A DNA stretch of 64,000 nucleotides. Origin: Bacteroidota bacterium (GTDB lineage: Bacteria; Bacteroidota; Bacteroidia; UKL13-3). The stretch spans positions 248,823 to 312,822 of the forward strand of contig JAZKBU010000007.1 of NCBI GenBank assembly GCA_040388375.1, read 5' to 3'. Positions 13,942 through 32,463 of this stretch are shown piece by piece (within the stretch, counting starts at the first letter, position 1; each line of letters begins with the position of its first letter). Below the pieces are notes generated by a model. That model made no database searches, was not told where the DNA came from, and saw nothing but the letters and a program-made list of their open reading frames with translations. Both the position numbers and the translations under genes were made by a program.

Positions 13942-15201
13942 TTAGTGTAATTGTTGTAATGCGGTTTCCAGTTTGCCTAACAATTCGGGTATATCGATTT
14001 CTTTTAAAGTGCCTACGGATATACGGTACCAATCGGTTCCGGCAGGGCAACCAAAAGCGGTAAAAGGCACTACGGCCAGTTGCGCGTGGTTTAACAGGAA
14101 GGCTGTAATCTGTTCTGTTTTTTCTATTTTAATACCTTCGGGTGTGGTTTTACCCATTAAAGCAAATTGGGCTGTTAGGTATATAGCGCCTTCGGGTGTA
14201 ATTAATTGTACGGGATATCCTTTTTGTTTCAAATCCTGAAAGCCTTTGTACAGGGCGTTAAAACGTATATCGAGCTTTTGTTTTAACTCGTTTAAAAAGC
14301 TGTTTAAAGCGGTATCGTTGTTTAAAAAGTTGGCTGTAGCCATTTGCTCGGCTTTGGGCGCCCAGGCTCCTATATGGCCTAGTATGGATTTCATGCGGCT
14401 TATTACATGGGCAGGGCCTAGGCTCCATCCTACTCTTACACCGGTAGCGGCTAAGCTTTTGCTAATGCCATCTACAAAAATGGTGTATGCTTTCATTTCG
14501 GGGCGCAGGCTTACGGGGTTGTAATGTTCTATGCCGTTGGTGCGCAACATCCAGTATATTTGATCGTATATAATGTACAGGGGCTTTTCGTCCGGGCCTC
14601 GTTTGTTGTTTTCGGCCAGTACCATATCGCATATGGCTTCGAGCTGGTCTTTTTTAAAGGTGGTGCCCGTTGGGTTGAGTGGCGAGCAAAGGGCTAACAA
14701 CACTGCTCCTTTTAAGTGCGGTGCCAGCTCCTCCGGTGTAGGCATAAAACCGTTTTCAGCACGGGTTTGTATTTCTACCTTTTGTGCATCGCTCAGATGG
14801 CAATAGTGGTTATTATTCCAGCTCGGTACAGGGTATATTACTTTGTCGTTTACATCTACTATGGTTTGGTATATGGCATGTATGAGCGGACGACCTCCAC
14901 CGGCTACCATTATTTCATCATCCGCAAAATCTATATGTTCGTATTTGCTGATGAATTGTTGTATGGCTTTTTTTAGCTCTAATACGCCATCGGCAGGCGG
15001 ATAATTGGTATGGTTATCCTGGTAAGCGTTAATGATTAGCTGCTTTAATTCATCGGGAATGCTGAACACATTGGGGTTAAAGTCCCCTATGGTCAGGTTG
15101 TATATTTGTTGTCCTTCGCGTATTTTCTGATTGATTTCATTGCCCAGTTTTATAATCTCTGAGCCTATTAAATTAGCTGCTTTGGTGGATACTTTTTGCA
15201 T
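13942..15201 (-). CDS. PLP-dependent aminotransferase, class I/II
   Basis: Fold-type I aminotransferase length and conserved segments, including a Lys-containing region (DGISKSLAATGVRVGW). Confidence 0.7.
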   Translation of the reverse strand: MQKVSTKAANLIGSEIIKLGNEINQKIREGQQIYNLTIGDFNPNVFSIPDELKQLIINAYQDNHTNYPPADGVLELKKAIQQFISKYEHIDFADDEIMVAGGGRPLIHAIYQTIVDVNDKVIYPVPSWNNNHYCHLSDAQKVEIQTRAENGFMPTPEELAPHLKGAVLLALCSPLNPTGTTFKKDQLEAICDMVLAENNKRGPDEKPLYIIYDQIYWMLRTNGIEHYNPVSLRPEMKAYTIFVDGISKSLAATGVRVGWSLGPAHVISRMKSILGHIGAWAPKAEQMATANFLNNDTALNSFLNELKQKLDIRFNALYKGFQDLKQKGYPVQLITPEGAIYLTAQFALMGKTTPEGIKIEKTEQITAFLLNHAQLAVVPFTAFGCPAGTDWYRISVGTLKEIDIPELLGKLETALQQLH

Positions 15202-15318
15202 GAACCGAAACTATTATTATTTTATAAAAGTAAATAATAAATATTTCAACAATGTTGGGAATACTTGCTACGCAGAACGAGCGGGCGCTTGCACCAGCAG
15301 TGAGGCCGCCAACAATCA

Positions 15319-16167: not shown

Positions 16168-16217
16168 AAAAAGAGTATTACTTTATGCTCGCATTTTTGC
16201 GAATAAGCATATTATTT

Positions 16218-16712
16218 TTAAGATAAGGTTATCTTTCCATTTTTAATGGTAAAGCTGTACAATTCAACAGTATCAACTGAAATGTTTTTAATTTTTCCGG
16301 CTGTCCAAGTTTTTAGTTCTGTAAATACAGCTACTATTTGGCTGTCCAGTTCTGTACTTTTTGTTTTATTGCTTATCTCACACTTTACAAGTTCGCCTTT
16401 ACAGTTTACAATTAAACTAACCATTCCCTTATCTTCATAATCTGGCTTATCTTTCAGAAAACTCACTTTAGCATTTAACTCCTGTATAATCTCTTCTTTG
16501 GTTTTAGTAGCTTGCGCTTTAACTTGTCCATTACCGGGAATTGGTAAAATAGCAATTACATTGGCATTGTCACAAACACCTTTTATGGGCTCTTTTACTT
16601 CCATTCTGGCAACCATATTATTTATTGAACTGCTTTTGGATGTTGCGCATGAGCTAATAATTCCGATGCTTATTAAGCCAATACAAATTGTTGTTAGTTT
16701 GTGTCTTTTCAT
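16218..16712 (-). CDS. Hypothetical lipoprotein
   Basis: Lipoprotein signal peptide with a lipobox Cys (IGIISSCATS). Confidence 0.5.
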   Translation of the reverse strand: MKRHKLTTICIGLISIGIISSCATSKSSSINNMVARMEVKEPIKGVCDNANVIAILPIPGNGQVKAQATKTKEEIIQELNAKVSFLKDKPDYEDKGMVSLIVNCKGELVKCEISNKTKSTELDSQIVAVFTELKTWTAGKIKNISVDTVELYSFTIKNGKITLS

Positions 16713-16813
16713 TTTTATCTACGGTTGCTGTTAACTTATTTATTAAGTTATATATTTCTCTTATTCGCAAAAGTATTTTATTATTCCACACCTCAAAATA
16801 CTGCGCAAAAAAA

Positions 16814-16837
16814 AAGGTTGGTGAGGACACCAACCTT
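16814..16837. repeat. REP-like perfect hairpin AAGGTTGGTG-AGGA-CACCAACCTT (family copy 1)
   Basis: 10-bp perfect arms downstream of the 16882 gene. The same sequence recurs at 22216-22239 and about 25340-25366; a degenerate copy sits at about 31968-31996. Confidence 0.75.
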
Positions 16838-16881
16838 GGACAAAACGCACTCGTTTCATCGCTAATCGCGAGGCCACTAAC

Positions 16882-17439
16882 TCAGCAATGGTTATTTTTG
16901 CTAAAGTCACGTTTAAAAAGTATCTTATTGTTTCGCGCAATATAGTCGCCTGATATAATCAAATAGGGATGATTAGGCGAATACCCTGCACTGCGGCTTC
17001 TTACCATTATTTTGTCGTTCACTTTCAGGCTTTTTAACTGCTCAAAATCCTTAGGCGTAAATTGCATCATGTATTCTTCGCCATTAATCCTGACGATAAG
17101 CCATTTTATTCCTGATGATTTCCCTTCGCGCTGAAAAGTAACGGAGGTTACCACGGCCTCCATATTGGTAAAATCTTTTATGTACTTCTTTATTTTATTA
17201 TGACTGGCATGCACCTTTTTACCTGCGGGAGAAACCTCCCATGCTTTGTAGTGTATACCGTCAGCAGAAGCTTCCCATTTTTTTCTTTCATCTGCCATGC
17301 GGGCTTCCCTGTCAGCAGTGGACAACGGCTTTGGAGATGGCTTGGTTTCATTTTTAATTTCACGATTGGCAAATACGAGTCCGCTCACCACAACCAGCAG
17401 TAAGATGAGCACATAGCTATTTTTTTTCATATGTTTCAT
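16882..17439 (-). CDS. Hypothetical secreted protein
   Basis: Signal peptide (VLILLLVVVSGLVFA); charged and hydrophilic. A REP-like hairpin follows at 16814-16837. Confidence 0.5.
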   Translation of the reverse strand: MKHMKKNSYVLILLLVVVSGLVFANREIKNETKPSPKPLSTADREARMADERKKWEASADGIHYKAWEVSPAGKKVHASHNKIKKYIKDFTNMEAVVTSVTFQREGKSSGIKWLIVRINGEEYMMQFTPKDFEQLKSLKVNDKIMVRSRSAGYSPNHPYLIISGDYIARNNKILFKRDFSKNNHC

Positions 17440-17694
17440 ATCCTTTCCAATTGATGCTACGAATCTAGTTTAATATTTTCCGGACTGAGCTGTAAATCTT
17501 GTTAATGAATTGTAAAAAGTATTTACTGAAACAATCCGCACTCGCCAGTGTTCCGCTAGTTAGTGCGGGTGCATTTATAGAAGGTTTGATATCGATATTG
17601 GTAACCGGCAGATATAATAAGAATATTCCCGCTGTTTTCATGAAAATTATCTACAATCAAATCCCCATCAATTGTTAAGCCGAGCCTATAGCGT

Positions 17695-18087
17695 TCAATA
17701 TGAACTTTGCTGTATAAAATGGGTACAATGGGTGGGACCTCCATTCTTTTCAAGATAAAATTCATAATAACCTTTTTTTGAAAAGCGTCCTGCATATGTT
17801 TTTGTGAATTCCTTACCTTTATACTTGAATGCAATTGTTAGTTGCTTGTTGCTATTAAAAAAAACATTTACACTGTCAATATTCCCTTTAGTTTCATGGA
17901 GTATTGTTAATAATTCATGGTGATCCTTGCCAAATTCTTTCTCCGGGCTGATTTTATAAGGAACGTTGGCAATTGTTGCTGAAAAAAGAGGGGTCAAGGG
18001 CTGCACTTTCGATTTTCTGACTTGTAAGCCCGATCCACAAGAACAGAAAAGCAAAACAGATAGCGTAATGGTTATTATTCTTGTCAA
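17695..18087 (-). CDS. Hypothetical lipoprotein
   Basis: Signal peptide followed by a CSCGSG lipobox-like motif. Confidence 0.45.
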   Translation of the reverse strand: MTRIITITLSVLLFCSCGSGLQVRKSKVQPLTPLFSATIANVPYKISPEKEFGKDHHELLTILHETKGNIDSVNVFFNSNKQLTIAFKYKGKEFTKTYAGRFSKKGYYEFYLEKNGGPTHCTHFIQQSSY

Positions 18088-18157
18088 GTTTTATGTTGTT
18101 TAAAATGCCCTATAACGTTTTACGGCTAAGTAGCCGTTAAATGATTGTTGTATTGCT

Positions 18158-18183
18158 AAGACGTTGTATGCAAAGTCTCTACG
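18158..18183. repeat. Palindromic element AAGACGTTG(T/C)ATGCAA(A/C)GTCTCTACG, two copies in the window
   Basis: Second copy at 37224-37249, whose core GACGTTGCATGCAACGTC is a perfect 18-bp palindrome. Both copies are intergenic. Confidence 0.6.
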
Positions 18184-18203
18184 TTTGTTGTTGCTTAGCA
18201 GTG

Positions 18204-18722
18204 CTACTGCCAGTTTTCTTTTTTTACGATGTATCTTCTATCCATACAGTTGTCGTCTGCGTTAAAAAATTCTTTCTGCATGGTAAAAAACTTGTTCAGT
18301 ATTTTAACTGATTTCACATTGTCAACGCATACATCAGCCGTTACCAATTCTGATTTCATTTGAACAAAACAAAAATCAATGAGTCCTTTGGCTATTTCGG
18401 TTCCATAACCGTTACCCCAGTATCTTTCTATAACCCGGTAAGCAATTTCATCTTCATTGGCATCGTTTTTTAAAACGCCACCAATGCCAATCAGGTTGTT
18501 ACTGCCTTTTTTGCAAAGGCTCCATATTTTTGTGTCGGATGTTTTTTCCAGTAAGATGAGGTTATTTAATTTGGCAAAACTCCCGGCTTTGTCGAAAGCT
18601 TTTTGAGGGATGGGGTTGGTTATATTGGGATTGCCCATTAGCTCAAAAAATGCGGCCTCGTCATTTTGTTCGAGTCTTCTTGCATAAAGTCTTTCCGTTT
18701 CAAATACCATAGTTAAAAGCAA
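18204..18722 (-). CDS. GNAT family N-acetyltransferase (RimJ/RimL-like)
   Basis: GNAT motifs (YRVIERYWGNGYGTEIAKGLIDFCF). Confidence 0.75.
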   Translation of the reverse strand: MLLTMVFETERLYARRLEQNDEAAFFELMGNPNITNPIPQKAFDKAGSFAKLNNLILLEKTSDTKIWSLCKKGSNNLIGIGGVLKNDANEDEIAYRVIERYWGNGYGTEIAKGLIDFCFVQMKSELVTADVCVDNVKSVKILNKFFTMQKEFFNADDNCMDRRYIVKKENWQ

Positions 18723-18769
18723 TCTAATACTATTTCACCAATCATCAAATGGGTTTTTATTTGCTTATT

Positions 18770-18798
18770 GGAACGAGCGGACGCTCGCACTAGCGGGG
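18770..18798. repeat. Palindrome-containing repeat GGAACGAGCGGACGCTCGCACTAGCGGGG (family copy; direct-repeat partner at 22277-22303)
   Basis: Near-identical copies at 22277-22303 (same orientation), and 27898-27919, 30265-30290 and 32375-32406 (inverted orientation). Confidence 0.7.
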
Positions 18799-18825
18799 TA
18801 CGAAGTATTGAACTATAAAAAAATG

Positions 18826-21800
18826 TTAAATAAAAAGCCTATAATCATAAGTCTTTCCTTCAAATCTAGAAAGCAATTTTCCAATTCGAGCAATTTGATT
18901 TGAAGAATCAATTGTCGATGGTAACTTAGAATATAAGTCTAATGAATTCCAATTCATTTTTGTTAGTCCTAATATCTCTGTTGCAATAGTTTGTATATTA
19001 GACTCGCCATAATGTTTGGTTATTTTGACTGGCGCAGGGATACTTCTACCGCCCAAATAAAACTTATAGTTTTGTTGTCTTACAGAAGGAACAATGCCAT
19101 GAGTCCATAATAATGCTGTATGCTTGTTTGTGACAATACACGTACCTCTCGAAATTGGAAACTTGTCAATCTGAAGTTCATTTTGATAAACACTCATAGC
19201 TAGGAAACGTGCATCTACTTCATAATTGATTTCAACTAAATCTATTTTCTTAATCCCAGCTTTATTTAGACTAGCTTTAATACCATTTATTTCATCTTCC
19301 GTAAATTTTGTTCTTTTGTGTATTACTACTCTTTCTGGAAGTTTATCAAGTGACTGATAAAACAATTCACGAATGGATACTCCAAATTGAAATGCATCTT
19401 TATAGGATAAATATGGGTTAAGTTGCTTGTCAAGAAAGTAGTTATCAATTTTTGAAAGTCTATACTTTAATCCTTGCCCGTTTGAATCGTAAATATGACT
19501 ACAGCCAATTACAATTTCAGATTTATCTTGAATTCGTGAAACACTATACCCGATTCCCGCATAAGCTGTATTTTTCTCTTGATTATTCAAAATCCAAGGT
19601 GTTCTAAGCGACTTAACATAAAAAGATAATGATAACCACCAATAGATTTGACACTTTAGGGTGTCATTAAGTGTTTCTTCCCTAATAAGTTGTGTCGAAA
19701 TACCTCGAGAAGCTGAAAATGCTTTAATATAGTCGTGTAAATCAAAACTTTCCCCTTGATTGATATAATTTTCAAATAATTGCCATTCATTAGGAATAAA
19801 AATTACGATAGTACTCTGACTTTGTGTATTCGCAATCTGTTCAATTTTGCTTGTGATTAGACGAACTAGTTTTATTGCATTTTCGTGGCTTTCCAAACCA
19901 TTTTCTGGATTGAATTCAATGCCAATCCATTTTTCGCTACTATCAAATAATGGAATATTAATTGGAATATTAAAAATGGAAGAGAAGCCAGGGTAATCAA
20001 TTAAATAATCAGGATTAATATTTTCTGTTGAGTGCTTTACTTGTAATTTTGATAGGAAATCATAAAATCTGTTCGAGTATTCTTTCCCACAAATTACTGA
20101 AAGATTTATTTCATTTGAATGAATTACTCCATTTAGATTTACATCAAATGGCCTGTTATTCACCAAACCTCTCATTGGATGATAGTCCTTAAACTCTACA
20201 TCAGTAGCCACATTTCTAAAAACTAATTGGGGCTCTAAAAATTGTACCCCTTTAAATTGAGTTTGTCTCTTATCATAATTATTTGGTGTATATGACCTAA
20301 AGTTAGGGTCAAGCACATTTATTTCTCCAAATGCTGTATTCGATGAAATTTGAAATTCAAAACCTGTTCCAGATGAAATTGGGTATTCAAATTTGATTCG
20401 TTGATTACTAAATAATGTGGCATTCCAAAAGTCTAAAACTTCATCATATTTATTGTTGTATAATTTTTCTAGTTGATTTTTACTTACTTGTTGTTTCTGT
20501 GTTTTTGTTATTTCCTCAGAAGATGAAAGATAAACGGTTGGAGTAAAGGTTAAATAAGCAAAGCCCGCGTTTTTATCAAAATAGAATGACAAGTAGATAG
20601 ATTTATGAACACCAATATTACCAAATTGCCTTTCATTTTTCTTGATCCAAATCTTATCTTTAAGATTTGTTTCAATTGTACTGTTAGAACTGAAATGTTT
20701 CAGGATTGCTTGAAGCATTAAGGATTTAAATGCGGAAACTCTCTCAATATCAAATTTTGAAATTGGCTCTCTTTTTATTTCGGATTTTAGATGCTTTTTA
20801 AAGGCATTGCTAATTTCAGAAAGAGTACCTAAAGCAAATACCTTTTTCTTGAAAGGTACAGCACAAATATTTGTATCTTTCGTAACTGCTTTTAAAAACG
20901 CCCAAGGCTTTTCTTCTTTATAATCAATTTCAAATTGGAATATCTCTTTAGGAAATACAATTGGATGAAGATTACTTTTGATGTATTTGTCTGTTCTTGA
21001 AAAACTCAAACTAAATTCAGTTTTGAAATATTCTTCATCATCAGAAACTTCCAAGGCTTCTTGAATTTTTTTAGAAATGGTTTGATTGTCTTCAAATGCT
21101 GATTTTGATAAATGAATCAACGTTTTATCAAATCCATCTGTTGCTACGTAATAAGCCTCTCTTCCCGACTGTCTAATTTGCAAAATAAGTTCGAGCACTT
21201 CTTTATTTATTTGGTCTCCATAGCCACACCAATATAATCTTCCTGCACCATTTTTGCTAAATGCAATTTTAATTGCTTGCATTAATGAATTATCTCTCCC
21301 ACTATAACCAATTACAATTAGATTTTTATCAATATGATAATTTGCTAAATGCTCTTTGAACGTTTCATTTTGATTATCTAATTCTTTTTCCGTGTTTTTT
21401 AATGTGGAAAATTTATAGTCACCGTGTAGTGCAATTGATAATAGTTCTTTACTACTTTGATTGCGGTAAATTTTATCAGTATTGTCAAGCGTAATCTCTA
21501 TTGGTGTTAATTTATTTTGATGTGCTGAACGTACCGTTAAGCCATCGAAGTTCGTAGTCCAAACTGATTTGACTATTCCATATTCCGCTAAAAGACAGAG
21601 TAATTTATAGCCAATATAAGGCTCTTTATTCTCTATTAGACTTAAAAAATATTTTCGTCTATCTTCAGCAATAGGATAAGCCTTTTCTGCATAAAAAGAA
21701 TATTCTTCGGGTGAGTCTAGTAATGGATACTCGCCTTGATTATCTAACCAAGTCTGTATACTTTTTCTAACAGCTTCTTCTTTATAGTTTTTATAAAAGT

Positions 21801-21984
21801 CAGCTGAATTAATATTTTTAGATAGATATATATCTTTTTTCCATTCCCAAATACAATCATAGGCTGTTTGTATCCCAGAACTTATTGAAGTTCCTGCTCC
21901 CAATAAGAAGGAATGAGGGACGTCTATATTCCTTTTAAAAGATCTTAAAAAAGCATCGTATTCAAGATGTATATTTTCTACCAT
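18826..21984 (-). CDS. Single-chain SIR2-APAZ-short prokaryotic Argonaute fusion (short-pAgo immune effector; catalytically inactive PIWI)
   Basis: N-terminal SIR2-type NADase motifs (FLLGAGTSISSGI; TTNFDGL; LHGDYK). Middle APAZ-sized region (~300 aa). MID-like 5'-end-binding Y..K...Q...K pattern (HDYIKAFSASRGISTQLI...YVKSL). PIWI first strand GIGYSV, with the catalytic Asp replaced by Gly. Ago-type C-terminal segment (GGRSIPAPVKITKHY). Confidence 0.8.
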   Translation of the reverse strand: MVENIHLEYDAFLRSFKRNIDVPHSFLLGAGTSISSGIQTAYDCIWEWKKDIYLSKNINSADFYKNYKEEAVRKSIQTWLDNQGEYPLLDSPEEYSFYAEKAYPIAEDRRKYFLSLIENKEPYIGYKLLCLLAEYGIVKSVWTTNFDGLTVRSAHQNKLTPIEITLDNTDKIYRNQSSKELLSIALHGDYKFSTLKNTEKELDNQNETFKEHLANYHIDKNLIVIGYSGRDNSLMQAIKIAFSKNGAGRLYWCGYGDQINKEVLELILQIRQSGREAYYVATDGFDKTLIHLSKSAFEDNQTISKKIQEALEVSDDEEYFKTEFSLSFSRTDKYIKSNLHPIVFPKEIFQFEIDYKEEKPWAFLKAVTKDTNICAVPFKKKVFALGTLSEISNAFKKHLKSEIKREPISKFDIERVSAFKSLMLQAILKHFSSNSTIETNLKDKIWIKKNERQFGNIGVHKSIYLSFYFDKNAGFAYLTFTPTVYLSSSEEITKTQKQQVSKNQLEKLYNNKYDEVLDFWNATLFSNQRIKFEYPISSGTGFEFQISSNTAFGEINVLDPNFRSYTPNNYDKRQTQFKGVQFLEPQLVFRNVATDVEFKDYHPMRGLVNNRPFDVNLNGVIHSNEINLSVICGKEYSNRFYDFLSKLQVKHSTENINPDYLIDYPGFSSIFNIPINIPLFDSSEKWIGIEFNPENGLESHENAIKLVRLITSKIEQIANTQSQSTIVIFIPNEWQLFENYINQGESFDLHDYIKAFSASRGISTQLIREETLNDTLKCQIYWWLSLSFYVKSLRTPWILNNQEKNTAYAGIGYSVSRIQDKSEIVIGCSHIYDSNGQGLKYRLSKIDNYFLDKQLNPYLSYKDAFQFGVSIRELFYQSLDKLPERVVIHKRTKFTEDEINGIKASLNKAGIKKIDLVEINYEVDARFLAMSVYQNELQIDKFPISRGTCIVTNKHTALLWTHGIVPSVRQQNYKFYLGGRSIPAPVKITKHYGESNIQTIATEILGLTKMNWNSLDLYSKLPSTIDSSNQIARIGKLLSRFEGKTYDYRLFI

Positions 21985-22215
21985 TATTATGTTGTTTTAT
22001 TTATTAAATTAGGTTATCTGCTATTTTATGTTGCAAAATAGCCTATTTCATAACCCCTGTTTACAAAACTTATTCCAATATTATAAGCCACAGAAAAATT
22101 TAATTATTTTTTTATGTATAGGGGTTTTGCTTTTTGAGTAGCAGTTTTACTCCCCGCTTTTTTAAAAGAATATATAAATGAAGGGTTGGTACATATACTG
22201 GCAAGTACGAGTGGA

Positions 22216-22271
22216 AAGGTTGGTGAGGACACCAACCTTGGACAAACTTGTTGGTGAAGAACACCAACAAG
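22216..22271. repeat. Tandem pair of REP-like hairpins (AAGGTTGGTG-AGGA-CACCAACCTT, then CTTGTTGGTG-AAGAA-CACCAACAAG) upstream of the pAgo gene
   Basis: Two adjacent perfect 10-bp-arm palindromes. The second is a sequence variant of the first. Confidence 0.75.
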
Positions 22272-22276
22272 GGCAG

Positions 22277-22303
22277 GAAACGAGCGGATGCTCGCACCAG
22301 CGG
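22277..22303. repeat. Second same-orientation copy of the GAACGAGCGGAYGCTCGCACYAGCGG repeat, 5' of the pAgo gene
   Basis: gaaacgagcggatgctcgcaccagcgg. Together with 18770-18798 it brackets a 3.5-kb segment containing only the SIR2-APAZ-pAgo ORF. Confidence 0.7.
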
Positions 22304-22317
22304 AGTGTTTGTGCAAT

Positions 22318-22353
22318 AAAAAATCCCTTCTATTTTGTAGAAGGGATTTTTTG
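22318..22353 (-). terminator. Bidirectional intrinsic terminator downstream of the 22361..23254 gene
   Basis: aatcccttcta-ttttg-tagaagggatt 11-bp stem with T-tracts on both sides. Confidence 0.7.
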
Positions 22354-22360
22354 TTTGTGG

Positions 22361-23254
22361 TTAGGCTTTGATAAGGCTTACCTGGAGCTGGGTTATTTTA
22401 CCCTGCTCAACAGTGGCTTGAACGCTTTGGGTTATATAGCCGCCTGCTTCTATACGCAGGGTGTACTGGCCTGCGCGCATTTTGGTTATTTCGCATATAC
22501 CTTGCTGGTCGGCTTCATCGGTTTTGGTGCTACCCTCTAAAATGGCTTTGGCAATGGTAAGTGGGTTATTGCTTGCTGCATCTGTTACTTTTATGCTTAC
22601 GCCTGTTTTGCGCACGGCTGCTTCGTTTATGACTTTGGTGGCTATAAGGATGCCGGCAAAAGCGGGGACATTCATTGCATTGACTACTAAATCGGTAATG
22701 ATGGCCAAGCTGGCATCGGCTGCTTTGAAGAGGCTATTGGTTTCGGCTACCATGTTTTTTTTGTTTTTTACAGCGCTTTGTGTAGTACCTAAACTGGTTT
22801 GGAATGCATTTACTAACTGGCGTGCGGCTGTTACATCGGTAGGCTTGATGTTGAGGTCAACCAAATTGCGTGCATTGGTTTCGATGGGTGTTAATACTGC
22901 ATTGGCTTTGGCATAACAGTCGGCATCGGGTAAGCGGGTAAAATCGGTTTTGGTTACATTGAAAAGGGTCATGAGTGGTATGTCTTTTTCATCCTTTGCC
23001 CATACGTAAGCGGCTCTTGCTAGTTTACAAAGGGTTTCGGTCATGGTTAATTTTAGCTGGGTATTGTTATTGGTAATACCTTTTGTGCTTACGCTGAGGC
23101 TGGAATTCAGCTCATCTATGCGTGCTAAGATTTGGTTGAAATGCTGCACCTCGGTGTCTAACCTTGCTAATAAGTTAACGGAGGCTGTGTTGGTTTTTAA
23201 AACTTGCTGTACGGCCTGGTACATGTTAAGTTTTGCAATTGAATTCTTATTCAT
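22361..23254 (-). CDS. Hypothetical protein with a C-terminal carboxypeptidase-regulatory-like beta-sandwich segment
   Basis: C-terminal RAGQYTLRIEAGGYITQSVQATVEQGKIT resembles a CarbopepD_reg-like domain. The rest is helical and uncharacterised. A 780-bp repeat-rich region lies upstream. Confidence 0.45.
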   Translation of the reverse strand: MNKNSIAKLNMYQAVQQVLKTNTASVNLLARLDTEVQHFNQILARIDELNSSLSVSTKGITNNNTQLKLTMTETLCKLARAAYVWAKDEKDIPLMTLFNVTKTDFTRLPDADCYAKANAVLTPIETNARNLVDLNIKPTDVTAARQLVNAFQTSLGTTQSAVKNKKNMVAETNSLFKAADASLAIITDLVVNAMNVPAFAGILIATKVINEAAVRKTGVSIKVTDAASNNPLTIAKAILEGSTKTDEADQQGICEITKMRAGQYTLRIEAGGYITQSVQATVEQGKITQLQVSLIKA

Positions 23255-23424
23255 ACGATTTTTAATTTATTGGTTGTTATAACGTTTTTGATAGCTGTTT
23301 TATTATTTTAAGCTGCTATAAAATGTTTGTTATATGGCTTGTTCAGGGGTATGAATTTGATATGTGGTTTTATTTTATTTTGATTGGCATTGGAAGGAGT
23401 TTGTTTGGGATGTAGAAGCTTATG

Positions 23425-23795
23425 TTTATGCTTTGATGGCATTTGTTTGATTCCCGATATGGTTTGTTTGACTGTTGGTATTGTTTGTTTACTCTTTGAT
23501 TGCCTTTGTTTAAGGTTTGACTGCATTTGTGTCACTTTTGATAGCGTATGGGTTAACTCTTGATTTTGTTTGTTTGACCTTTGATGGCGTATGTTTAACC
23601 TTTGGTTGACTTTGCATCAGGTGCGGCTGAATTTGTGTCACTTTCAATGGCTTATGTTTGACTTTAAAAGTGATTTGTTTGACTCTTGATGGCTTATGTT
23701 TAACCTTTGATGGCATTTGTTTAAGGCTCGACTGAATTTGTGTCATATTGAGCGGCTTATGTTTGACCCTTGATGTGATTTGTTTGGGATTGGGT
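23425..23795. repeat. Degenerate 21-bp tandem repeat array (about 17 units) with a 105-bp (5-unit) higher-order periodicity
   Basis: Units such as ctttgatggcatttgtttaag, ctttgatggcgtatgtttaac and tcttgatggcttatgtttaac. Every fifth unit is the variant ...gactg(c/a)atttgtgtca(c/t). The units are contiguous with no spacers. Confidence 0.8.
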
Positions 23796-23810
23796 GGGGT
23801 TTGCACCGCA

Positions 23811-23880
23811 TTTCATACGGTGTATCTACCGTATTTTATACGGTGTATCTACCGTATTTCATACGGTGTTATTGAAATTA
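23811..23880. promoter_or_regulatory. Two and a half tandem copies of a 23-bp unit carrying the palindrome TACGGT-N6-ACCGTA (operator-like)
   Basis: tttcatacggtgtatctaccgta / ttttatacggtgtatctaccgta / tttcatacggtgtt. 6-bp inverted arms separated by 6 bp, which fits a dimeric HTH binding site. Confidence 0.5.
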
Positions 23881-24032
23881 AATCACTTCGTGATTTTTAT
23901 ATGGGGGTGACTATATATGGAATGGAAATACATAATTATGCCTGGCCCCGTTCTTCTTCTATATCCTCATTGGGCCATTTTACTCGTTTTTCTTCCATGG
24001 TATAATATACTATTTGGTAAGATTGTTCTTAC

Positions 24033-24623
24033 TTATACTTTAATTCTCTTATCACGTGCTTGCATTCCATTTAACGTGCTGTGTATTTTCCTTTGTTTGT
24101 TAATAATATCAACAAGCTCTGCAATATTGCACGCAAGAGCAGTTGAGGAGATACTTAATGGCGTTCCATAAACACGGTAATTCATGTTCATCCAAAATTT
24201 CTTAAACAGGTTTGCATTGTTGATGTATTGGTGTGGATTATTCACATAGATTAATACAAACTTTGTTCGCTTAACGGCTTCTATACGGAGGTGTGTTATG
24301 TCGTCCCATTTTATGGTTTGCCCGCCAATTGCGCTGGAGTTATCGGTTATGCCCATGTGGTTTATTATTATTCCCGGTTTGGTGTCGAATAGTTTTCCAA
24401 AACCTATTATTCCGAACAGTCCGAAAAGAAGGAAATCCATGAGGGCTACTATCCTTACCACAGTTGAATCGTAACGTGCCTGCCTCTCGGCTATGTACCA
24501 CAGCCAAAGTCCGGCAGCTACAAACAATAAAGCCCCGATGGTGAGCAAAACAATTTTAAGCTTGTTTAGCGGTATTTCAATAGAGTCGTTTTTGTTTTGT
24601 ATTAACATAGTACTTTTATCCAT
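24033..24623 (-). CDS. Membrane-anchored protein (two TM helices plus a cytoplasmic PH-like domain?)
   Basis: Hydrophobic N-terminal helices (LLTIGALLFVAAGLWLWYI; FLLFGLFGIIGFG). Promoter copy A lies upstream. Confidence 0.45.
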   Translation of the reverse strand: MDKSTMLIQNKNDSIEIPLNKLKIVLLTIGALLFVAAGLWLWYIAERQARYDSTVVRIVALMDFLLFGLFGIIGFGKLFDTKPGIIINHMGITDNSSAIGGQTIKWDDITHLRIEAVKRTKFVLIYVNNPHQYINNANLFKKFWMNMNYRVYGTPLSISSTALACNIAELVDIINKQRKIHSTLNGMQARDKRIKV

Positions 24624-24677
24624 AGCGCTTAAAAACCAAGCCTGTCAGTGTGCTCCGTATTAAATAAATTAACTTCC

Positions 24678-24731
24678 CTAACAAAAGTATTGGTTTATTT
24701 GATTCAGCAAAATGTTGTCTAAATAAAAAAA
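24678..24731 (-). promoter_or_regulatory. Bacteroidetes-type promoter, copy A of a repeated extended promoter element
   Basis: The minus-strand reading gives TTTTGCTGAATCAAATAAACCAATACTTTTGTTAG, i.e. a -33 TTTG, an 18-nt spacer, and a -7 TACTTTTG (TAnnTTTG). It lies 45-100 nt upstream of the 24623 start. Confidence 0.6.
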
Positions 24732-24778
24732 ATTAGCGATGACACTAACTCTGGACAATACCATAATACATACGTTTA

Positions 24779-25216
24779 TTAAAAGAATTTTCTTGGCCCT
24801 CCTTTGAAGTCCCACGAACTTATTGGGTTAGGGTTATCCATATACCAATTGTCTGTTTGCTTAATGTCAACCAGCCATTCATAAGTATGCGTCCCTACCA
24901 ATTCTGTTTCTAAATGTATGGTAGCACTTGTCCAATAAAGCAGTTTAAGAATAGCTTCAAATTTATTTAACCATTCGGTCCATTCATATTCAACAGACTT
25001 ATAAGAAGCCCCAAATACTATTACCTGGTCTCTATAGGTCCCTTCAATATTATGTGGGTCTTGGCAAAGAAACATATTTCGGTGTATCCATGGAAAGGTA
25101 TCTGTTTCCGGCAGAGCGCTTAAAATTTCTTTATTAAGCCGTTGTAATTTATGGTAATCTTCCGTTTTCCATGTTGCCCCTATTATATTTCCATAAACGA
25201 TTGAAACGTGTCCCAT
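24779..25216 (-). CDS. Hypothetical protein (145 aa), Trp/Tyr-rich
   Basis: ORF with no recognisable motif; promoter copy B lies upstream. Confidence 0.4.
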   Translation of the reverse strand: MGHVSIVYGNIIGATWKTEDYHKLQRLNKEILSALPETDTFPWIHRNMFLCQDPHNIEGTYRDQVIVFGASYKSVEYEWTEWLNKFEAILKLLYWTSATIHLETELVGTHTYEWLVDIKQTDNWYMDNPNPISSWDFKGGPRKFF

Positions 25217-25287
25217 TGAAATTGTTATTTTATATCTATAATAAACTTAAACCAATCACAACTATTATAATCTGGTTCATAATCTTC

Positions 25288-25341
25288 ACTAACAAAAGTA
25301 TTGGTTTATTTGATACAGCAAAATGTTGCCTAAATAAAAAA
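25288..25341 (-). promoter_or_regulatory. Promoter element copy B (about 55 bp, nearly identical to copy A)
   Basis: Same TTTG...TACTTTTG architecture, upstream of the 24779..25216 gene. Confidence 0.6.
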
Positions 25342-25467
25342 GGTTGGTGAGGGAACACCAACCTTGAACAAATTGTATTTAGCCAGGGGCTCATGTATAT
25401 ACTCACTCGCAAGATACCAACATGCAGCAGAAACACCTGTCCATTTGCTTCGCTTGCCCTGCCCTTG

Positions 25468-26403: not shown

Positions 26404-26520
26404 AGCTATTTCTACCTGTTGCCATCATGCAAATAAAGCCCGCTACTTACTGTTGTAATTGCACTACTTATAGTTGTTTTTTGACAACCATTAGTAGTAT
26501 GACGGAGTTTTGGTAGCGTA

Positions 26521-26556
26521 TTAACAAAAGTATTGGATTATTTGACACTGCAAAAC
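26521..26556 (-). promoter_or_regulatory. Promoter element copy C
   Basis: ttaacaaaagtattggattatttgacactgcaaaa, upstream of the HTH-pentapeptide gene. Confidence 0.5.
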
Positions 26557-26642
26557 AACTTTCTCCTGTCCACGGTAACGTCTCCCGACTAACCGCTCGT
26601 ATTTTGCAAGTGAGTATTTTTAATGCTGAACAAGGAATTTAT

Positions 26643-27101: not shown

Positions 27102-27233
27102 ACTATTTTGTTGTTAAGGTTTTAGGCTTGGCAAGGTAAGAGAAATTATGCTCAGCCGGAAACTTAGCTAACTATATACTCACTCGCAAGATGCGAACGG
27201 ATGCGAATAGCACAAAGGTGTACCCTGTTTTTT

Positions 27234-27875
27234 TTAATGATACCATTGTCCGGTAGCTTGCGAAGTCCACTCCCCTTTTTCTTTTTCAAATAGAATTGTC
27301 CAACCCGTTCCACAAAGTCCGGGACATAAATTTCTAATCATCATTACAACCTTTTTCTTGTCTTGCGAAAAAACAGGGACAGAGAAAACATACCAGTTCT
27401 TGCGATTATTAAGGTTAAAGCCTAATCGCGAATTGTCCCAACTAAATATTTTAAGTCTGGCTTTTTGTTCTAGCATAAATTTGATGTCTGGTTTAGTCAG
27501 GCACTTGTTAAGTTGTGATGAACTAATTGTACTAGTAGTATTTACCCAGTTGCCAGTATCAACTTGTATGTCTTCCTTTTTATTGTCAATAAGCATTGTA
27601 TTTAAAAATGTCTGATCATCTTGCGACAAATCAAAATTAGGTTGCGGCTCAAGTGTCAGTCCATAATTTAAATCTAATTTTTGGTCAGCAATAACAACTT
27701 TCATAAAGTTATAAATGGCTTGATTGGAAGTATCAGGCTCACTAATTAAATGCTCAATATGATCTTTAGTTGTTGTGTCAGTATAAAGTTTCGCTTCGGT
27801 AACAGGCTTATTTTCTGACTGCCCGCAACCTAAAAGTGAAATAGATACTATTGGTATATAAATTAGTTTTTTCAT
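27234..27875 (-). CDS. Hypothetical lipoprotein
   Basis: Internal start MKKLIYIPIVSISLLGCGQS (lipobox). The upstream extension of the tracked ORF is a translated REP-like repeat. Confidence 0.5.
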   Translation of the reverse strand: MKKLIYIPIVSISLLGCGQSENKPVTEAKLYTDTTTKDHIEHLISEPDTSNQAIYNFMKVVIADQKLDLNYGLTLEPQPNFDLSQDDQTFLNTMLIDNKKEDIQVDTGNWVNTTSTISSSQLNKCLTKPDIKFMLEQKARLKIFSWDNSRLGFNLNNRKNWYVFSVPVFSQDKKKVVMMIRNLCPGLCGTGWTILFEKEKGEWTSQATGQWYH

Positions 27876-28089
27876 TGTCCTATTGGCCTCCTTACTGGTT
27901 TGAGCGTCCGCTCGTTCCTTTATATATAACCAAGGCAATGTACCGAATGTTGAATAGATTGCCCCAACTCTTTACCCCCTTTAAGTGTAAATTATGTATT
28001 TTTTTTCACAAGTTATGTAAGGCTTTGTTGTACTTCCATAAGTACGTTTGTGTTTGCAAAGTAACAATTTACGATTAAAAACAAACACT

Positions 28090-28926: not shown

Positions 28927-28933
28927 AAGGCAA

Positions 28934-29425: not shown

Positions 29426-29454
29426 TTTGTTTGTTATTGTCTATTTATTAGAAA

Positions 29455-30180
29455 TCAGTCACCAAAAAATCTTAATCCTTCTATTGGTGTATCGTAGGTG
29501 TGATTCTCTTTTAACCTAAGCCAGCCAACAAGTCCAAATTCGGTTTTAACTAAAAAAAACTTCTCTGAATTGTCAGTACCCGGGTCGCAAAGCAGTACCT
29601 CAACATCATAGTCTTTAGGAATGGAAGCAATCACTTCATTACCTGTCTTTGCTTTATACAATGTTAAAGCAGCAGTGGTTTTGCTTTTTAGTCCAACATA
29701 ATAAAATGATTGCCGAATTTCTAATAAAGTATCTGGTAAAAGTTGAAACTTTCTTCTCTTGTTAAACATATTATTGGTATGTCCTGCCGTGTATATAATG
29801 TTGTTTTCCATGACATACAATTCCAGCGCATTAATACTTCCAATTACTCTTCCACTCTTCTTTGCTATAATAAATTCAAAATCATCACTTGGCCCCGTAT
29901 CAAAAAGAATATCCAGTGTATCTGTTATTTGTTTATTATGTATTTGTGTCAGCTTTGTAATAGTTTCCGGATCGCCATCGCCACAATACCAATAATCTGT
30001 TTTGGGTAAACGGGAGCATTTTACATTTAGTAGTTTAATTGATTTGGCATCATACCCAAAAATGAATTCTTTACGAGCCGTATCTATATATATTTTCTTT
30101 AAGTTAGGAAAGTATGCGGGTTTCTGTCCGTAGGAGTAATAGCATGTTAATATAAAAAGGGTAGTAATAATGTTCTTCAT
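29455..30180 (-). CDS. Hypothetical secreted protein
   Basis: Signal peptide (IITTLFILTCYYSYGQ); promoter copy D lies upstream. Confidence 0.5.
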   Translation of the reverse strand: MKNIITTLFILTCYYSYGQKPAYFPNLKKIYIDTARKEFIFGYDAKSIKLLNVKCSRLPKTDYWYCGDGDPETITKLTQIHNKQITDTLDILFDTGPSDDFEFIIAKKSGRVIGSINALELYVMENNIIYTAGHTNNMFNKRRKFQLLPDTLLEIRQSFYYVGLKSKTTAALTLYKAKTGNEVIASIPKDYDVEVLLCDPGTDNSEKFFLVKTEFGLVGWLRLKENHTYDTPIEGLRFFGD

Positions 30181-30208
30181 ATCGGGGTCGAATAACCTGT
30201 TCTTTGTA

Positions 30209-30245
30209 TTAACAAAAATATTGTATTATTTGACACCACAAAAGA
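30209..30245 (-). promoter_or_regulatory. Promoter element copy D
   Basis: ttaacaaaaatattgtattatttgacaccacaaaa, about 30 nt upstream of the 30180 start. Confidence 0.5.
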
Positions 30246-30316
30246 TTTCATGCCTGCTACATTGCTGGTGTGAGCGTTCCGCTCCTTCCTTTTCGCCAAT
30301 GTTGGCGTCCTATTTA

Positions 30317-30523
30317 CTATTGCTTATTATTTTTCATTTTGTTAAACCACAGGTAAAGCGACCAAACTACCGTGATTCCGAAAACGATAAGCACAGCAAT
30401 ATAGTAAGTGCGGAAAAAGTCGTGAAAGTATGCTCCAACTAACACGTATGCCGATGCCATGCAAATTTTTAACAAAGCAAATTCAGCATTGGACCAGCTT
30501 GTTTTTATTTTTAAGAAATTCAT
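30317..30523 (-). CDS. Small two-helix membrane protein (about 68 aa), uncertain
   Basis: Hydrophobic ORF whose 5' end would overlap the globin gene in the tracked ORF. It was trimmed to an internal Met to remove the overlap; that is a guess. Confidence 0.3.
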   Translation of the reverse strand: MNFLKIKTSWSNAEFALLKICMASAYVLVGAYFHDFFRTYYIAVLIVFGITVVWSLYLWFNKMKNNKQ

Positions 30524-30537
30524 ATTGCTTTTTAGTT

Positions 30538-31011
30538 TTAGTCTGTAATGTAAGGCCCTCCTGTTTCGCCCCAACCCCACTTGGGCATTGGTTCATTTGT
30601 GAGCATTGGATTTTCGCTTAATTGTGAATTTATAACAGCGAGTCGTGTACCCCACTCAATATAACCAACAAATGCTGACCGGAATTCGGGGTCGCTTTTA
30701 AGCCCTACTTCATCAGCTGTTTGTAATAGCAAATGAACCCAACGCTGTCTCATTTCTTCAGTGAGCATTTTGCCTATATGATGCCCAACCATACTTGCGT
30801 GGCTTCCTTTGTCGTGGGTGGTATATAGTTTATCGCCACCAAATACTTCCGCTACAAAATGCGAAACGTGCTTAACATGCTCTGACGACATATTTTTAAA
30901 TATTTCGCCAAGCAAATTGTCTTTTAATACCTTGTCGTAAAACTTCGTAAACAGGGTTTCGAAGGTTTGCATATCGCCAGCCCATTCGTATAATGTTGGA
31001 ATATTTTTCAT
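30538..31011 (-). CDS. Group II truncated hemoglobin (trHbO-like)
   Basis: 2-on-2 globin pattern: YEWAGD...FY.KV..D..L..IF, proximal His region HFVAEVFGGDKLY, and Trp in the distal site region (RWVHLLLQTADEVG). Confidence 0.7.
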   Translation of the reverse strand: MKNIPTLYEWAGDMQTFETLFTKFYDKVLKDNLLGEIFKNMSSEHVKHVSHFVAEVFGGDKLYTTHDKGSHASMVGHHIGKMLTEEMRQRWVHLLLQTADEVGLKSDPEFRSAFVGYIEWGTRLAVINSQLSENPMLTNEPMPKWGWGETGGPYITD

Positions 31012-31050
31012 TATTTTTATGTCGGTTTATAGTATTTAGGTTAATACTGT

Positions 31051-31518: not shown

Positions 31519-31532
31519 CTGCTTTATTCCTG

Positions 31533-31898: not shown

Positions 31899-31914
31899 AG
31901 CTTATTTTACTTCT

Positions 31915-31955: not shown

Positions 31956-32050
31956 TCATGCTTACTCACCTAAGGTTGGTGAGGACATCAGCCTTGGGCA
32001 AACATTCAGGAACATACCCTGCGTTTGTTACTATCGACCAAACTTCAGTT

Positions 32051-32314
32051 TTAGTGCGTTAAAGATGTATATATCAGTAAAAGAACCAAGCCCATGAAGC
32101 CGGCAATAAGAAATGAAGCAGTAAAGGCCCATTTGTTCTTTTTCTTATAAAAGTAAATGGCTGCAATAGCACTTACAAGGCCAACCACTACCATGAATCC
32201 AAGTATTTGTAATAATGTTTTAACTGCTCCCATTTGGTCGGCAAATGCCAATGCAGGTAAGGCGAGTATCGTTAGTAGTGCTACTATTTTTTTCTTGTTG
32301 TATTGGTTTAGCAT
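32051..32314 (-). CDS. Small membrane protein (about 87 aa)
   Basis: Internal start MLNQYNKKKIVALLTILALPALAFA with two TM helices. The tracked ORF's 5' extension covers a REP-like repeat. Confidence 0.4.
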   Translation of the reverse strand: MLNQYNKKKIVALLTILALPALAFADQMGAVKTLLQILGFMVVVGLVSAIAAIYFYKKKNKWAFTASFLIAGFMGLVLLLIYTSLTH

Positions 32315-32463
32315 AGCGGGGGTATATTTGTTTATCGCTACCTCACAAATGTTATGCCAACGCTTGTTTATTATCCGCTGCTGGTGCGAGCGTCCCGCTC
32401 GTTCCCTAAAATGCAAACACTGCACTTGGACAATATTCTTAAAAAAGTTTATCATTGCATGGT

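What the first reader, a model, noticed from the sequence alone, without database searches (positions are those of the whole stretch)
18770..22306. The pAgo gene is bracketed by same-orientation copies of a 27-bp palindromic element plus tandem hairpins, giving a cassette-like structure
The element GAACGAGCGGAYGCTCGCACYAGCGG occurs at 18770-18798, just 3' of the pAgo stop. It occurs again at 22277-22303, about 290 nt 5' of the pAgo start, in the same orientation. Together the copies frame a roughly 3.5-kb segment that contains only the pAgo ORF. Immediately outside the 5' copy are two tandem perfect hairpins (22216-22271). Three more copies of the same element, in inverse orientation, mark other gene junctions in the island (27898, 30265, 32375). 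This suggests the defence gene was acquired or relocated as a discrete module between REP/MITE-like elements, or that these elements are recombination hot spots that organise the island.
Basis: seen in the sequence. Interest (0 to 1): 0.6.

Follow-up and report, generated by a model that had tools for sequence, protein, structure and literature searches.

The report
REP repeats around a pAgo gene
The short repeats on either side of the Argonaute defence gene are real, but they are ordinary transposase-associated intergenic repeats (REPs) scattered through a 17-kb variable region, not the ends of a cassette that carries the gene.

Summary
The two hairpins at 22215-22274 are also real.

What the elements are:
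- The element (REP1) is a repetitive extragenic palindrome. In other Bacteroidota genomes, inverted copies flank a 183-aa REP-associated tyrosine transposase (RAYT). This RAYT hits NCBIfam NF047646 above its cutoff and sits next to REP1 in 16 of 120 loci.
- The hairpins are a second family (REP2). In one locus they flank a second RAYT-like gene.

Where they sit: all 12 REP1/REP2 copies lie inside window 15254-32440. This is a hypervariable island between two genes that are conserved in relatives.

The pAgo cassette reading fails on three counts:
- About 220 nt between REP1-C and the pAgo start, promoter included, is conserved in relatives that lack pAgo. There it precedes unrelated genes.
- REP content at that one spot differs among four relatives.
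- The pAgo homologues inspected (84-91% amino-acid identity) sit in four other contexts, share only the ORF, and have no REPs nearby.

pAgo is clearly foreign: it has the lowest GC3 of 25 genes.

Whether REPs drive gene turnover in the island, or only accumulate there, is not resolved. Interest is low to moderate.

The parts
15275..15300 (+).
18771..18796 (+). REP1 copy B, 30 nt beyond the pAgo stop and upstream of the GNAT gene
22278..22303 (+). REP1 copy C, between the terminator of gene 22361..23254 and the two REP2 hairpins
27892..27918 (-). REP1 copy D, just upstream of the 213-aa gene 27234..27875
30262..30289 (-). REP1 copy E, between ORF 30317..30580 and the promoter of gene 29455..30180
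32378..32405 (-). REP1 copy F, about 32 nt from the right edge of the variable island
16813..16844 (+). REP2 copy (GGTTGGTG-AGGA-CACCAACC TTGGACAAA). On the - strand it reads as a stem followed by T9, directly upstream of a promoter
22215..22246 (+).
22245..22274 (+).
24728..24759 (+). REP2 copy (diverged); stem plus T-run on the - strand
25341..25372 (+). REP2 copy; stem plus T-run on the - strand
31971..32002 (+). REP2 copy
18146..18197 (.). Third palindromic repeat (REP3, core AGACGTTG(C/T)ATGCAA(C/A)GTCT) just beyond the GNAT stop. It also occurs at 37224-37249 and twice in relative L135
18826..21984 (-). SIR2-APAZ-pAgo fusion gene, 1052 aa, GC 0.308, GC3 0.217
22320..22355 (-). Terminator-like hairpin with T-runs after gene 22361..23254; conserved in L130 and L134
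   Evidence: read from the sequence
22040..22214 (-). Spacer and promoter module upstream of pAgo, conserved upstream of unrelated genes in the pAgo-less relatives L130 and L134
15254..32440 (.). Hypervariable island between the conserved aminotransferase gene and the 329-aa gene; it contains all 12 REP1/REP2 copies

Best explanation
The repeats are repetitive extragenic palindromes (REPs) of at least two families.

REP1 (GGAACGAGCGG(N)ACGCTCGCACCAGCAG) is the cognate repeat of a Bacteroidota REP-associated tyrosine transposase (RAYT). This is an HUH/Y1 enzyme that, in characterised relatives, recognises and cuts such hairpins in single-stranded DNA. REP2 (GGTTGGTG-loop-CACCAACC-TTGGACAAA) is associated with a second RAYT-like gene.

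The copies have been seeded one at a time into intergenic spacers, mostly just after gene ends. They lie in a 17-kb hypervariable region (window 15254-32440) that sits between two genes conserved in relatives.

The SIR2-APAZ-pAgo gene is one horizontally acquired gene in that region. It is placed behind a pre-existing promoter. The REP copies on its two sides are simply the residents of the two neighbouring spacers, not the ends of a unit that carried it.

Shown here: the repeat families, their association with RAYT genes elsewhere, their restriction to the island, the variability of the island, the position of the 5' variable boundary, and the ORF-only homology of pAgo.

Inferred: that RAYTs disperse these particular repeats, and that REP2 doubles as a transcription terminator.
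For: REP1-RAYT link:
- In L057, L037 and L077, inverted REP1 copies lie 632-644 nt apart and enclose a 183-aa ORF.
- That ORF hits NCBIfam NF047646 REP_Tyr_transpos at 94 bits (cutoff 80) and Pfam Y1_Tnp.
- tblastn finds a homologue at E <= 1e-20 in 16 of the 120 loci fetched by the REP1 pattern. In 13 of these the layout is REP1(-) on the left and REP1(+) on the right, whichever strand the gene is on.
- Its motifs (NHVH, WQ, YIHNNP; 183 aa) match the Bacteroidetes RAYT subclass 2.6, which is described as flanked by 'atypical secondary structures' with further copies in the genome (PMC6006769).

REP2-RAYT link:
- In L056, inverted REP2 copies flank a 155-aa ORF with HIHL and YIHNNP motifs. Its best NCBIfam hit is NF047646 at 58 bits.

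Distribution of REP1:
Most hits are in Flavobacteriia, Sphingobacteriia, Chitinophagia, Cytophagia and Bacteroidia.
- Single genomes gave up to 7 separate stretches.

Restriction to the island:
- Profile searches place all 6 REP1 and all 6 REP2 copies between 15.27 and 32.41 kb.
- In L137 the same two anchor genes are only 3.5 kb apart. In L135 the content differs gene by gene.

Evidence against a pAgo cassette:
- Alignment A2 shows that conservation with the pAgo-less relatives runs through the REP insertion spot to the promoter -7 box.
- REP content there differs in all four genomes.
- pAgo homologues in L124, L125, L126/L129 and L139 share only the ORF and have no REPs.

Foreign origin of pAgo:
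- Its GC3 of 0.217 is the lowest of 25 genes.
- Homologues at 72-91% amino-acid identity occur across Bacteroidota classes.
Against: - No RAYT gene is present in the 64-kb window. The rest of the source genome could not be searched, so the cognate transposase of this genome is assumed, not shown.
- The REP2-RAYT link rests on one locus, and that protein scores below the NCBIfam cutoff.
- A genome-wide count in the source genome was not possible, so restriction to the island is shown only for this window and for about 90 kb of relatives' sequence.
- The 3' junction of the pAgo insertion (REP1-B side) could not be mapped, because no relative retains the GNAT side.
- At 83% nucleotide identity, flanking non-coding homology between pAgo loci would be hard to detect even if it once existed.
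Confidence: 0.8

Rival explanations
1. REP-bounded mobile cassette. The same-orientation copies B and C would act like the left and right ends of an IS200/IS605-type element. A RAYT supplied in trans would then excise and insert the 3.5-kb pAgo segment as a unit.
For: - B and C are in the same orientation and enclose only pAgo.
- Y1 transposases act on same-strand hairpin ends (established knowledge of IS608; PMC6006769).
- pAgo is clearly mobile among Bacteroidota.
- Many pAgo contigs in metagenomes are barely longer than the gene.
Against: - About 220 nt between C and the pAgo start, promoter included, is conserved in pAgo-less relatives, where it precedes other genes.
- REP1-C is absent from L130 and L134 but present in the pAgo-less L132.
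- Four other pAgo loci have no REP1 or REP2 and share only the ORF.
- The short Logan contig of the source sample (L001) breaks at the exact 32-nt REP2 repeat at both ends (16813 and 22244), as expected for k-mer assembly. The other short pAgo contigs were not examined.
Confidence: 0.04
2. REPs, together with the similar promoter/terminator modules next to them, are the cause of the island's gene turnover. As dispersed short homologies or RAYT cleavage sites, they would promote deletion, replacement and capture of single genes, pAgo among them.
For: - All 12 REP1/REP2 copies lie in the 17-kb island and none lies in the other 47 kb.
- REP1-A and REP1-F sit 21 and ~32 nt from the two island edges.
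- The block shared with L135 (window 16214-16844) ends at the outer edge of a REP2 on one side. In L135, a REP1 lies 6 nt beyond its other end.
- In relative L137, a Y1 transposase with its own palindromes occupies the same locus.
- REPs are absent from the conserved housekeeping stretches of L135, L136, L132 and L134.
Against: - The evidence is correlation only. REPs occupy about half of the island's spacers, so breakpoints near REPs are expected by chance.
- The best-mapped breakpoint (pAgo 5' side, at the promoter -7 box) is about 160 nt from the nearest REP.
- REPs may simply be tolerated, or hitch-hike, in poorly constrained accessory DNA.
- REP1 cores are only ~28 nt, which is short for RecA-dependent exchange.
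Confidence: 0.2
3. The hairpins are functional transcript elements (terminators or 3'-end stabilisers) kept by selection, rather than selfish repeats. This applies mainly to REP2.
For: - All six REP2 copies have the same orientation relative to the - strand genes.
- On the - strand, three copies (16813, 24728, 25341) are followed by a run of six or more T, and all sit just upstream of the next gene's promoter (read from the sequence).
- The stems are strong, at -10.9 kcal/mol.
Against: - The copies at 22215 and 31971 have no or only a short T-run.
- The same sequence flanks a RAYT-like gene in L056 in inverted orientation, so the family is a mobile repeat first.
- REP1 occurs in both orientations relative to transcription and folds weakly.
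- No Rfam family matches.
Confidence: 0.35

Closest known systems
REP/RAYT systems (REPtrons), in particular the Bacteroidetes RAYT subclass 2.6 of Quentin et al. 2018 (= RAYT group 5 of Bertels et al. 2017)
   Same: - A short hairpin with a conserved unpaired tail, dispersed in intergenic DNA.
- Inverted copies flank a single-copy Y1/HUH transposase gene (NF047646).
- The motifs NHVH, WQ and YIHNNP and the length of 183 aa fit subclass 2.6.
   Different: - There is no GTAG or CGTC tag. The conserved tail is CACCAGC(A/G)G.
- The stem is only 5-6 bp.
- The core is nearly identical across several classes of Bacteroidota, whereas REPs of Pseudomonas or Stenotrophomonas differ between species (PMC3686654 abstract).
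- The window itself contains no RAYT.
E. coli REP/BIME elements
   Same: - They sit just after gene ends.
- They occur in clusters of two or three units in one spacer (22215-22303).
- They have possible terminator or mRNA-end roles (PMC2817692 and PMC3733652 abstracts).
   Different: - Here the cluster mixes two unrelated families in the same orientation, rather than alternating inverted copies of one family.
- The copies are confined to one variable region in the sequence available.
Neisseria dRS3/NIME repeats and 'minimal mobile elements'; core defence hotspots of Pseudomonas aeruginosa (PMC10250203)
   Same: A variable set of single genes between conserved flanking genes, with small palindromic repeats at many junctions and no integrase. 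dRS3 is classed as a CGTC-type REP in PMC3733652.
   Different: - The resemblance to NIME/MME is recalled from my own knowledge and was not tested here.
- The island carries only one recognisable defence gene, the pAgo.
IS200/IS605 transposons with passenger genes
   Same: Same-strand hairpin ends and a Y1 transposase family. This is the mechanism a REP-bounded cassette would need.
   Different: - There is no transposase between B and C.
- The sequence inside C is conserved in genomes without the passenger gene.
- No other copy of such a unit was found.

Membership tests
REP / RAYT system (REPtron) | A short, imperfectly palindromic repeat present in multiple dispersed copies | tested here: met
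   Six REP1 and six REP2 copies in the window, with 0 expected by chance. REP1 was also found in many Bacteroidota genomes.
REP / RAYT system (REPtron) | Extragenic location | tested here: met
   Ten of the twelve copies lie between the ORFs listed. REP1-D and REP1-F fall in the 5' extension of the longest ORF (27234..27938 and 32051..32455). REP1-D lies upstream of the start used by the gene caller (L122). The gene caller's 134-aa call includes REP1-F, which is extragenic only if an internal ATG near 32315 is the true start (read from the sequence).
REP / RAYT system (REPtron) | A RAYT gene (Y1/HUH) flanked by inverted copies of the same repeat | tested here: met
   Met in other genomes. For REP1: L057, L037, L077, L032, L107, L035, L101, L011, L038, L058, L061, L080 and L043; the protein hits NF047646 at 94 bits against a cutoff of 80. 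For REP2: one locus, L056, with the protein below cutoff at 58 bits.
REP / RAYT system (REPtron) | A cognate RAYT in the same genome as the repeats | not testable with these tools
   There is no RAYT in the 64-kb window (tblastn best E = 0.16).
REP / RAYT system (REPtron) | High copy number genome-wide (tens to hundreds) | tested here: inconclusive
Up to 7 stretches per genome were seen with a strict pattern that matches only 4 of the 6 window copies. No count exists for the source genome.
REP / RAYT system (REPtron) | A conserved 5' GTAG (or CGTC) tag next to the stem | tested here: not met
   The conserved unpaired part is CACCAGC(A/G)G, or CTGCTGGTG on the other strand. This agrees with the 'atypical' structures reported for Bacteroidetes subclass 2.6 (PMC6006769). 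The tag defines the GTAG and CGTC super-families, not REPs as such.
RAYT subclass 2.6 (Quentin et al. 2018) | Motifs NH[LIV]H, WQ and YIH[QN]NP; ~179 aa; Bacteroidetes | tested here: met
   L057:1280-1831 is 183 aa and contains NHVH, WQQH and YIHNNP (Table 1 of PMC6006769 as quoted). Phylogenetic placement was not done.
   The 5' boundary is at the promoter -7 box (~22060), about 220 nt inside REP1-C. The 3' boundary is not mapped.
   L124, L125, L126/L129 and L139 show homology only over window 22002..18825 and contain no REP1 or REP2.
Short pAgo, SIR2-APAZ-pAgo fusion (SPARSA-type) | An N-terminal SIR2 domain fused to APAZ and MID-PIWI in one polypeptide | tested here: met
   Pfam SIR2_2 at residues 140-263. 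PADLOC pAgo PDLC02384 over the full length at 1552 bits; Aga_SIR2-PNTD1-PNTD2 and pAgo_I models cover the N- and C-terminal halves.

The most novel reading that the evidence does not exclude
A core-flanked hotspot in uncultured Bacteroidota in which RAYT/REP elements, together with reusable promoter and terminator modules, actively shuffle single genes. Defence genes such as SIR2-APAZ-pAgo would be captured as bare ORFs behind resident promoters. REPs would then be the recombination machinery of an integrase-free gene-capture locus, not passive residents.
Probability: 0.1. Interest if true: 0.7.

Novelty: new member of a known kind. Interest (0 to 1): 0.3.

Why it matters
- It removes a tempting but wrong reading. 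The defence gene is not packaged between these repeats, so they cannot be used to delimit or predict pAgo cassettes.
- It gives the concrete sequence of the 'atypical' REP that goes with the Bacteroidetes RAYT subclass, and shows that its core is nearly invariant across several classes of the phylum.
- It documents a compact, integrase-free hypervariable locus, between an aminotransferase gene and a 329-aa gene. There, close relatives differ gene by gene, and a highly mobile SIR2-APAZ-pAgo ORF sits behind a promoter that drives other genes in relatives.
- If the REP enrichment in such loci holds genome-wide, it would be a testable lead on how accessory genes turn over in Bacteroidota.

Tried and rejected
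- Rfam at gathering thresholds over the whole window gave no family, and there are no tRNA or tmRNA genes that could mark an integration site. A structured RNA or tRNA-targeted island is therefore not indicated.
- Loci L072 and L045 share single genes with the window (78-80% nucleotide identity) and were checked as possible relatives. They have no synteny and were dropped.
- Exact-protein look-ups for pAgo, gene 22361..23254 and the aminotransferase returned only the source sample. Those short-read contigs break at the 32-nt REP2 repeat, which is an assembly effect and not biology.
- I looked for a RAYT in the window with the L057 protein and found nothing significant.
- I considered REP1 as a terminator for pAgo. 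The stem is weak and no T-run follows on the - strand, so I rejected this.
- The near-equal A-B and B-C spacings (3496 and 3507 nt) might hint at a duplicated unit. A-B holds five unrelated small genes and B-C holds pAgo, and there is no sequence similarity between them, so I treat it as coincidence.
- A literature search for a link between REPs and defence islands found nothing specific.


Full report
**1. Observation**

Searching GAACGAGCGGAYGCTCGCACYAGCGG with up to 3 mismatches gives 18771-18796 (+), 22278-22303 (+) and an unreported copy at 15275-15300 (+). None is expected in shuffles. The inverse copies are at 27892-27918, 30262-30289 and 32378-32405.

An alignment of the six copies with flanks shows a conserved core of about 28 nt, GGAACGAGCGG(N)ACGCTCGCACCAGCAG, and nothing conserved outside it. 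A profile HMM of the six copies finds only these six in 64 kb.

The core is only partly palindromic. It has a 5-6-bp stem and a tail, and it folds weakly as ssDNA, at -4.6 to -7.3 kcal/mol.

The ORF between copies B and C (18826..21984, - strand, 1052 aa) is a SIR2-APAZ-pAgo fusion. It has Pfam SIR2_2 and a full-length match to PADLOC pAgo PDLC02384 at 1552 bits.

The two 'tandem hairpins' (22215-22246 and 22245-22274) have perfect 10-bp stems, each at -10.9 kcal/mol. They belong to a second repeat family with six copies, all on the + strand: 16813, 22215, 22245, 24728, 25341 and 31971.

**2. What the repeats are**

About 100 of the 120 loci are from Bacteroidota: Flavobacterium, Lutibacter, Flagellimonas, Chryseobacterium, Pedobacter, Daejeonella, Chitinophagaceae, Pontibacter, Cesiribacter and Marinifilum. 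Two are from Balneolaceae. The rest are single hits in GC-rich genomes that look like chance. Individual genomes contributed up to seven separate stretches.

In L057, L037 and L077 two copies lie in inverted orientation 632-644 nt apart. Between them is a 183-aa ORF. That ORF matches NCBIfam NF047646, 'REP-associated tyrosine transposase', at 94 bits against a cutoff of 80. It also matches Pfam Y1_Tnp.

Homologues of this protein at E <= 1e-20 are present in 16 of the 120 loci. In 13 of them the gene has REP1(-) on its left and REP1(+) on its right, regardless of the gene's own strand. This is the defining arrangement of a REP with its RAYT.

The protein's motifs (NHVH, WQ, YIHNNP) and length fit the Bacteroidetes-specific RAYT subclass 2.6. 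The genes of that subclass were reported to be flanked by 'atypical secondary structures' with further copies in the genome (PMC6006769).

The hairpin family (REP2) flanks, in inverted orientation, a second RAYT-like ORF in L056. That ORF has HIHL and YIHNNP motifs, and its best NCBIfam hit is NF047646 at 58 bits, below the cutoff. The unit there interrupts a REP1-type RAYT gene.

A third palindromic repeat (REP3, core AGACGTTGCATGCAACGTCT) occurs at 18146-18197 and 37224-37249, and twice in relative L135.

The window itself contains no RAYT. No Rfam family or tRNA is present.

**3. Is pAgo a repeat-bounded cassette?**

Three lines of evidence say no.

(a) Relatives that carry the neighbouring gene 22361..23254 at 75-90% amino-acid identity (L130, L132, L134) have no pAgo, and each has a different gene downstream. 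The intergenic alignment (A2; sequences) shows that the window, L130 and L134 share several features in order:
- the stop codon,
- the terminator hairpin,
- a ~170-nt spacer,
- the promoter, up to its -7 box (window ~22060).

Similarity is lost only after that point. The variable unit therefore begins about 220 nt inside REP1-C, behind a resident promoter.

(b) At the same spot between terminator and spacer, REP content differs among the four genomes. The window has REP1 + REP2' + REP2, L130 has one REP2, L132 has one REP1 and L134 has none. REP gain and loss there is independent of pAgo.

(c) pAgo homologues of 72-91% amino-acid identity occur in many Bacteroidota classes. The four other contexts inspected are L124, L125, L126/L129 and L139, at 84-91% amino-acid and 77-83% nucleotide identity. 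They all differ from one another, and one lies next to a serine recombinase. Nucleotide homology is confined to window 22002..18825, which is the ORF plus at most 18 nt. None contains REP1 or REP2.

pAgo nevertheless looks foreign. Its GC is 0.308 and its GC3 is 0.217, the lowest of 25 genes.

**4. The wider structure**

The aminotransferase gene (13942..15201) and the genes from 32455 onward are conserved in relatives. In L137 these two anchors are only 3.5 kb apart. They hold an Lhr-type helicase and an IS200-like Y1 transposase flanked by four copies of yet another palindrome.

In L135 (95% amino-acid identity in the aminotransferase) the adjoining genes differ from the window except for one shared gene block (window 16214-16844). 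REP1, REP2 and REP3 copies lie at most junctions.

Window 15254-32440 is therefore a hypervariable island. All 12 REP1/REP2 copies lie inside it, and REP1-A and REP1-F lie 21 and ~32 nt from its edges. Conserved housekeeping stretches in L135, L136, L132 and L134 carry none.

REPs occupy about half of the island's spacers, so breakpoints will often fall near one. The best-resolved breakpoint, the pAgo 5' side, is not at a REP.

**5. Mechanism**

Most likely (confidence 0.8), REP1 and REP2 are dispersed by their RAYTs acting on single-stranded hairpins, as in characterised REP/RAYT systems. They then persist in weakly constrained spacers of an accessory region.

REP2 copies all share one orientation, and three are followed by T-runs on the coding (-) strand just upstream of the next promoter. 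They probably also serve as terminators; this is inferred and not tested.

pAgo arrived by horizontal transfer as little more than an ORF. The route of insertion is unknown.

**6. Comparison and novelty**

This is a REP/RAYT system of the Bacteroidetes type. The kind is known. The specific repeat sequence, its near-invariance across classes, and its concentration in a core-flanked variable locus are modest additions. The cassette idea is not supported.

Interest is 0.3. The most novel reading still open is that REP/RAYT elements and the reusable promoter modules actively drive single-gene capture in this locus (probability about 0.1).

**Limits**
- The source genome outside the window could not be searched, so there is no genome-wide count and no cognate RAYT for this genome.
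- The 3' junction of the pAgo insertion is unmapped.

Noticed in passing
window 15254-32440; L135, L136, L137: A 17-kb hypervariable island between a conserved aminotransferase gene and a conserved 329-aa gene. In relative L137 the two anchors are 3.5 kb apart and hold only an Lhr helicase and an IS200-like transposase. In L135 the content differs gene by gene.
   Followed up: partly
window 22040-22214 (- strand); L130:10985-11180; L134:10930-11110: The spacer and promoter upstream of pAgo are conserved upstream of unrelated genes (445 aa, 193 aa) in pAgo-less relatives. Different ORFs appear to be swapped in behind one resident promoter.
   Followed up: partly
window 18826-21984; P0001-P0120; L124, L125, L126, L139: The SIR2-APAZ-pAgo protein is 72-91% identical across distant Bacteroidota (Rubrolithibacter, Fluviicola, Niabella, Flavobacterium, Chryseobacterium, Algoriphagus) and Balneolales. 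It sits in a different context each time, with nucleotide homology limited to the ORF. Many metagenome contigs are barely longer than the gene.
   Followed up: partly
window 18146-18197 and 37224-37249; L135:2218-2253 and 3866-3920: A third palindromic repeat family (core AGACGTTGCATGCAACGTCT, a perfect 20-nt palindrome). No associated transposase was identified.
   Followed up: no
L056:7070-7880: A REP1-type RAYT gene (start at 7145) is interrupted by a REP2-RAYT2-REP2 unit. One REP/RAYT system has inserted into the transposase gene of another.
   Followed up: partly
L137:2620-3484: An IS200-family transposase (NF033573, 79 bits) has two copies of the palindrome CATAACCCACGGTTTAAACCGTGGGTTATG on each side. 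It lies in the locus that corresponds to the window's island.
   Followed up: partly
window 23380-23870: 21-nt periodic repeats encode a 7-residue repeat ORF (23510..23806, KVKHKPS-like). They are followed by three 23-nt hairpin repeats at 23796-23869. The periodic region is conserved upstream of the CarboxypepD_reg-domain gene in L130.
   Followed up: no
window 16751-16815, 24668-24739, 25279-25350, 26508-26555, 30196-30260, 31903-31950: Highly similar promoter modules (TTTG-N19-TAnnTTTG with an extended shared spacer; two are 88% identical over 72 nt) precede many small genes of the island, usually right after a REP2.
   Followed up: no
window 15275 / 18771 / 22278: Successive same-orientation REP1 copies are 3496 and 3507 nt apart, although the intervening content is unrelated. 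This is probably coincidence.
   Followed up: partly
L001, L122 versus window 16813-16844 and 22215-22246: Short-read (Logan) contigs of the source sample end at or next to the two identical 32-nt REP2 copies. L001 spans 16813-22244 exactly. L122 runs out about 115 nt past the CarboxypepD_reg-domain gene, near 22246 by arithmetic (not aligned). This assembly artefact could be mistaken for a mobile-element boundary.
   Followed up: yes
L052:3548-3965; L036:61-140; L006:20-80: In some genomes REP1, or its 3' half (GACGCTCGCACYAGC), occurs in tandem arrays: about 197-nt spacing in L052 and about 31-nt spacing in L036.
   Followed up: no
window 16882-17439; L045:5317-5895: A 185-aa hypothetical gene of the island is about 81% identical in nucleotide sequence (635-nt alignment) to a gene in Flavobacterium sp. 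LS1P3, with no surrounding synteny. This is another sign of recent horizontal exchange of single genes.
   Followed up: no
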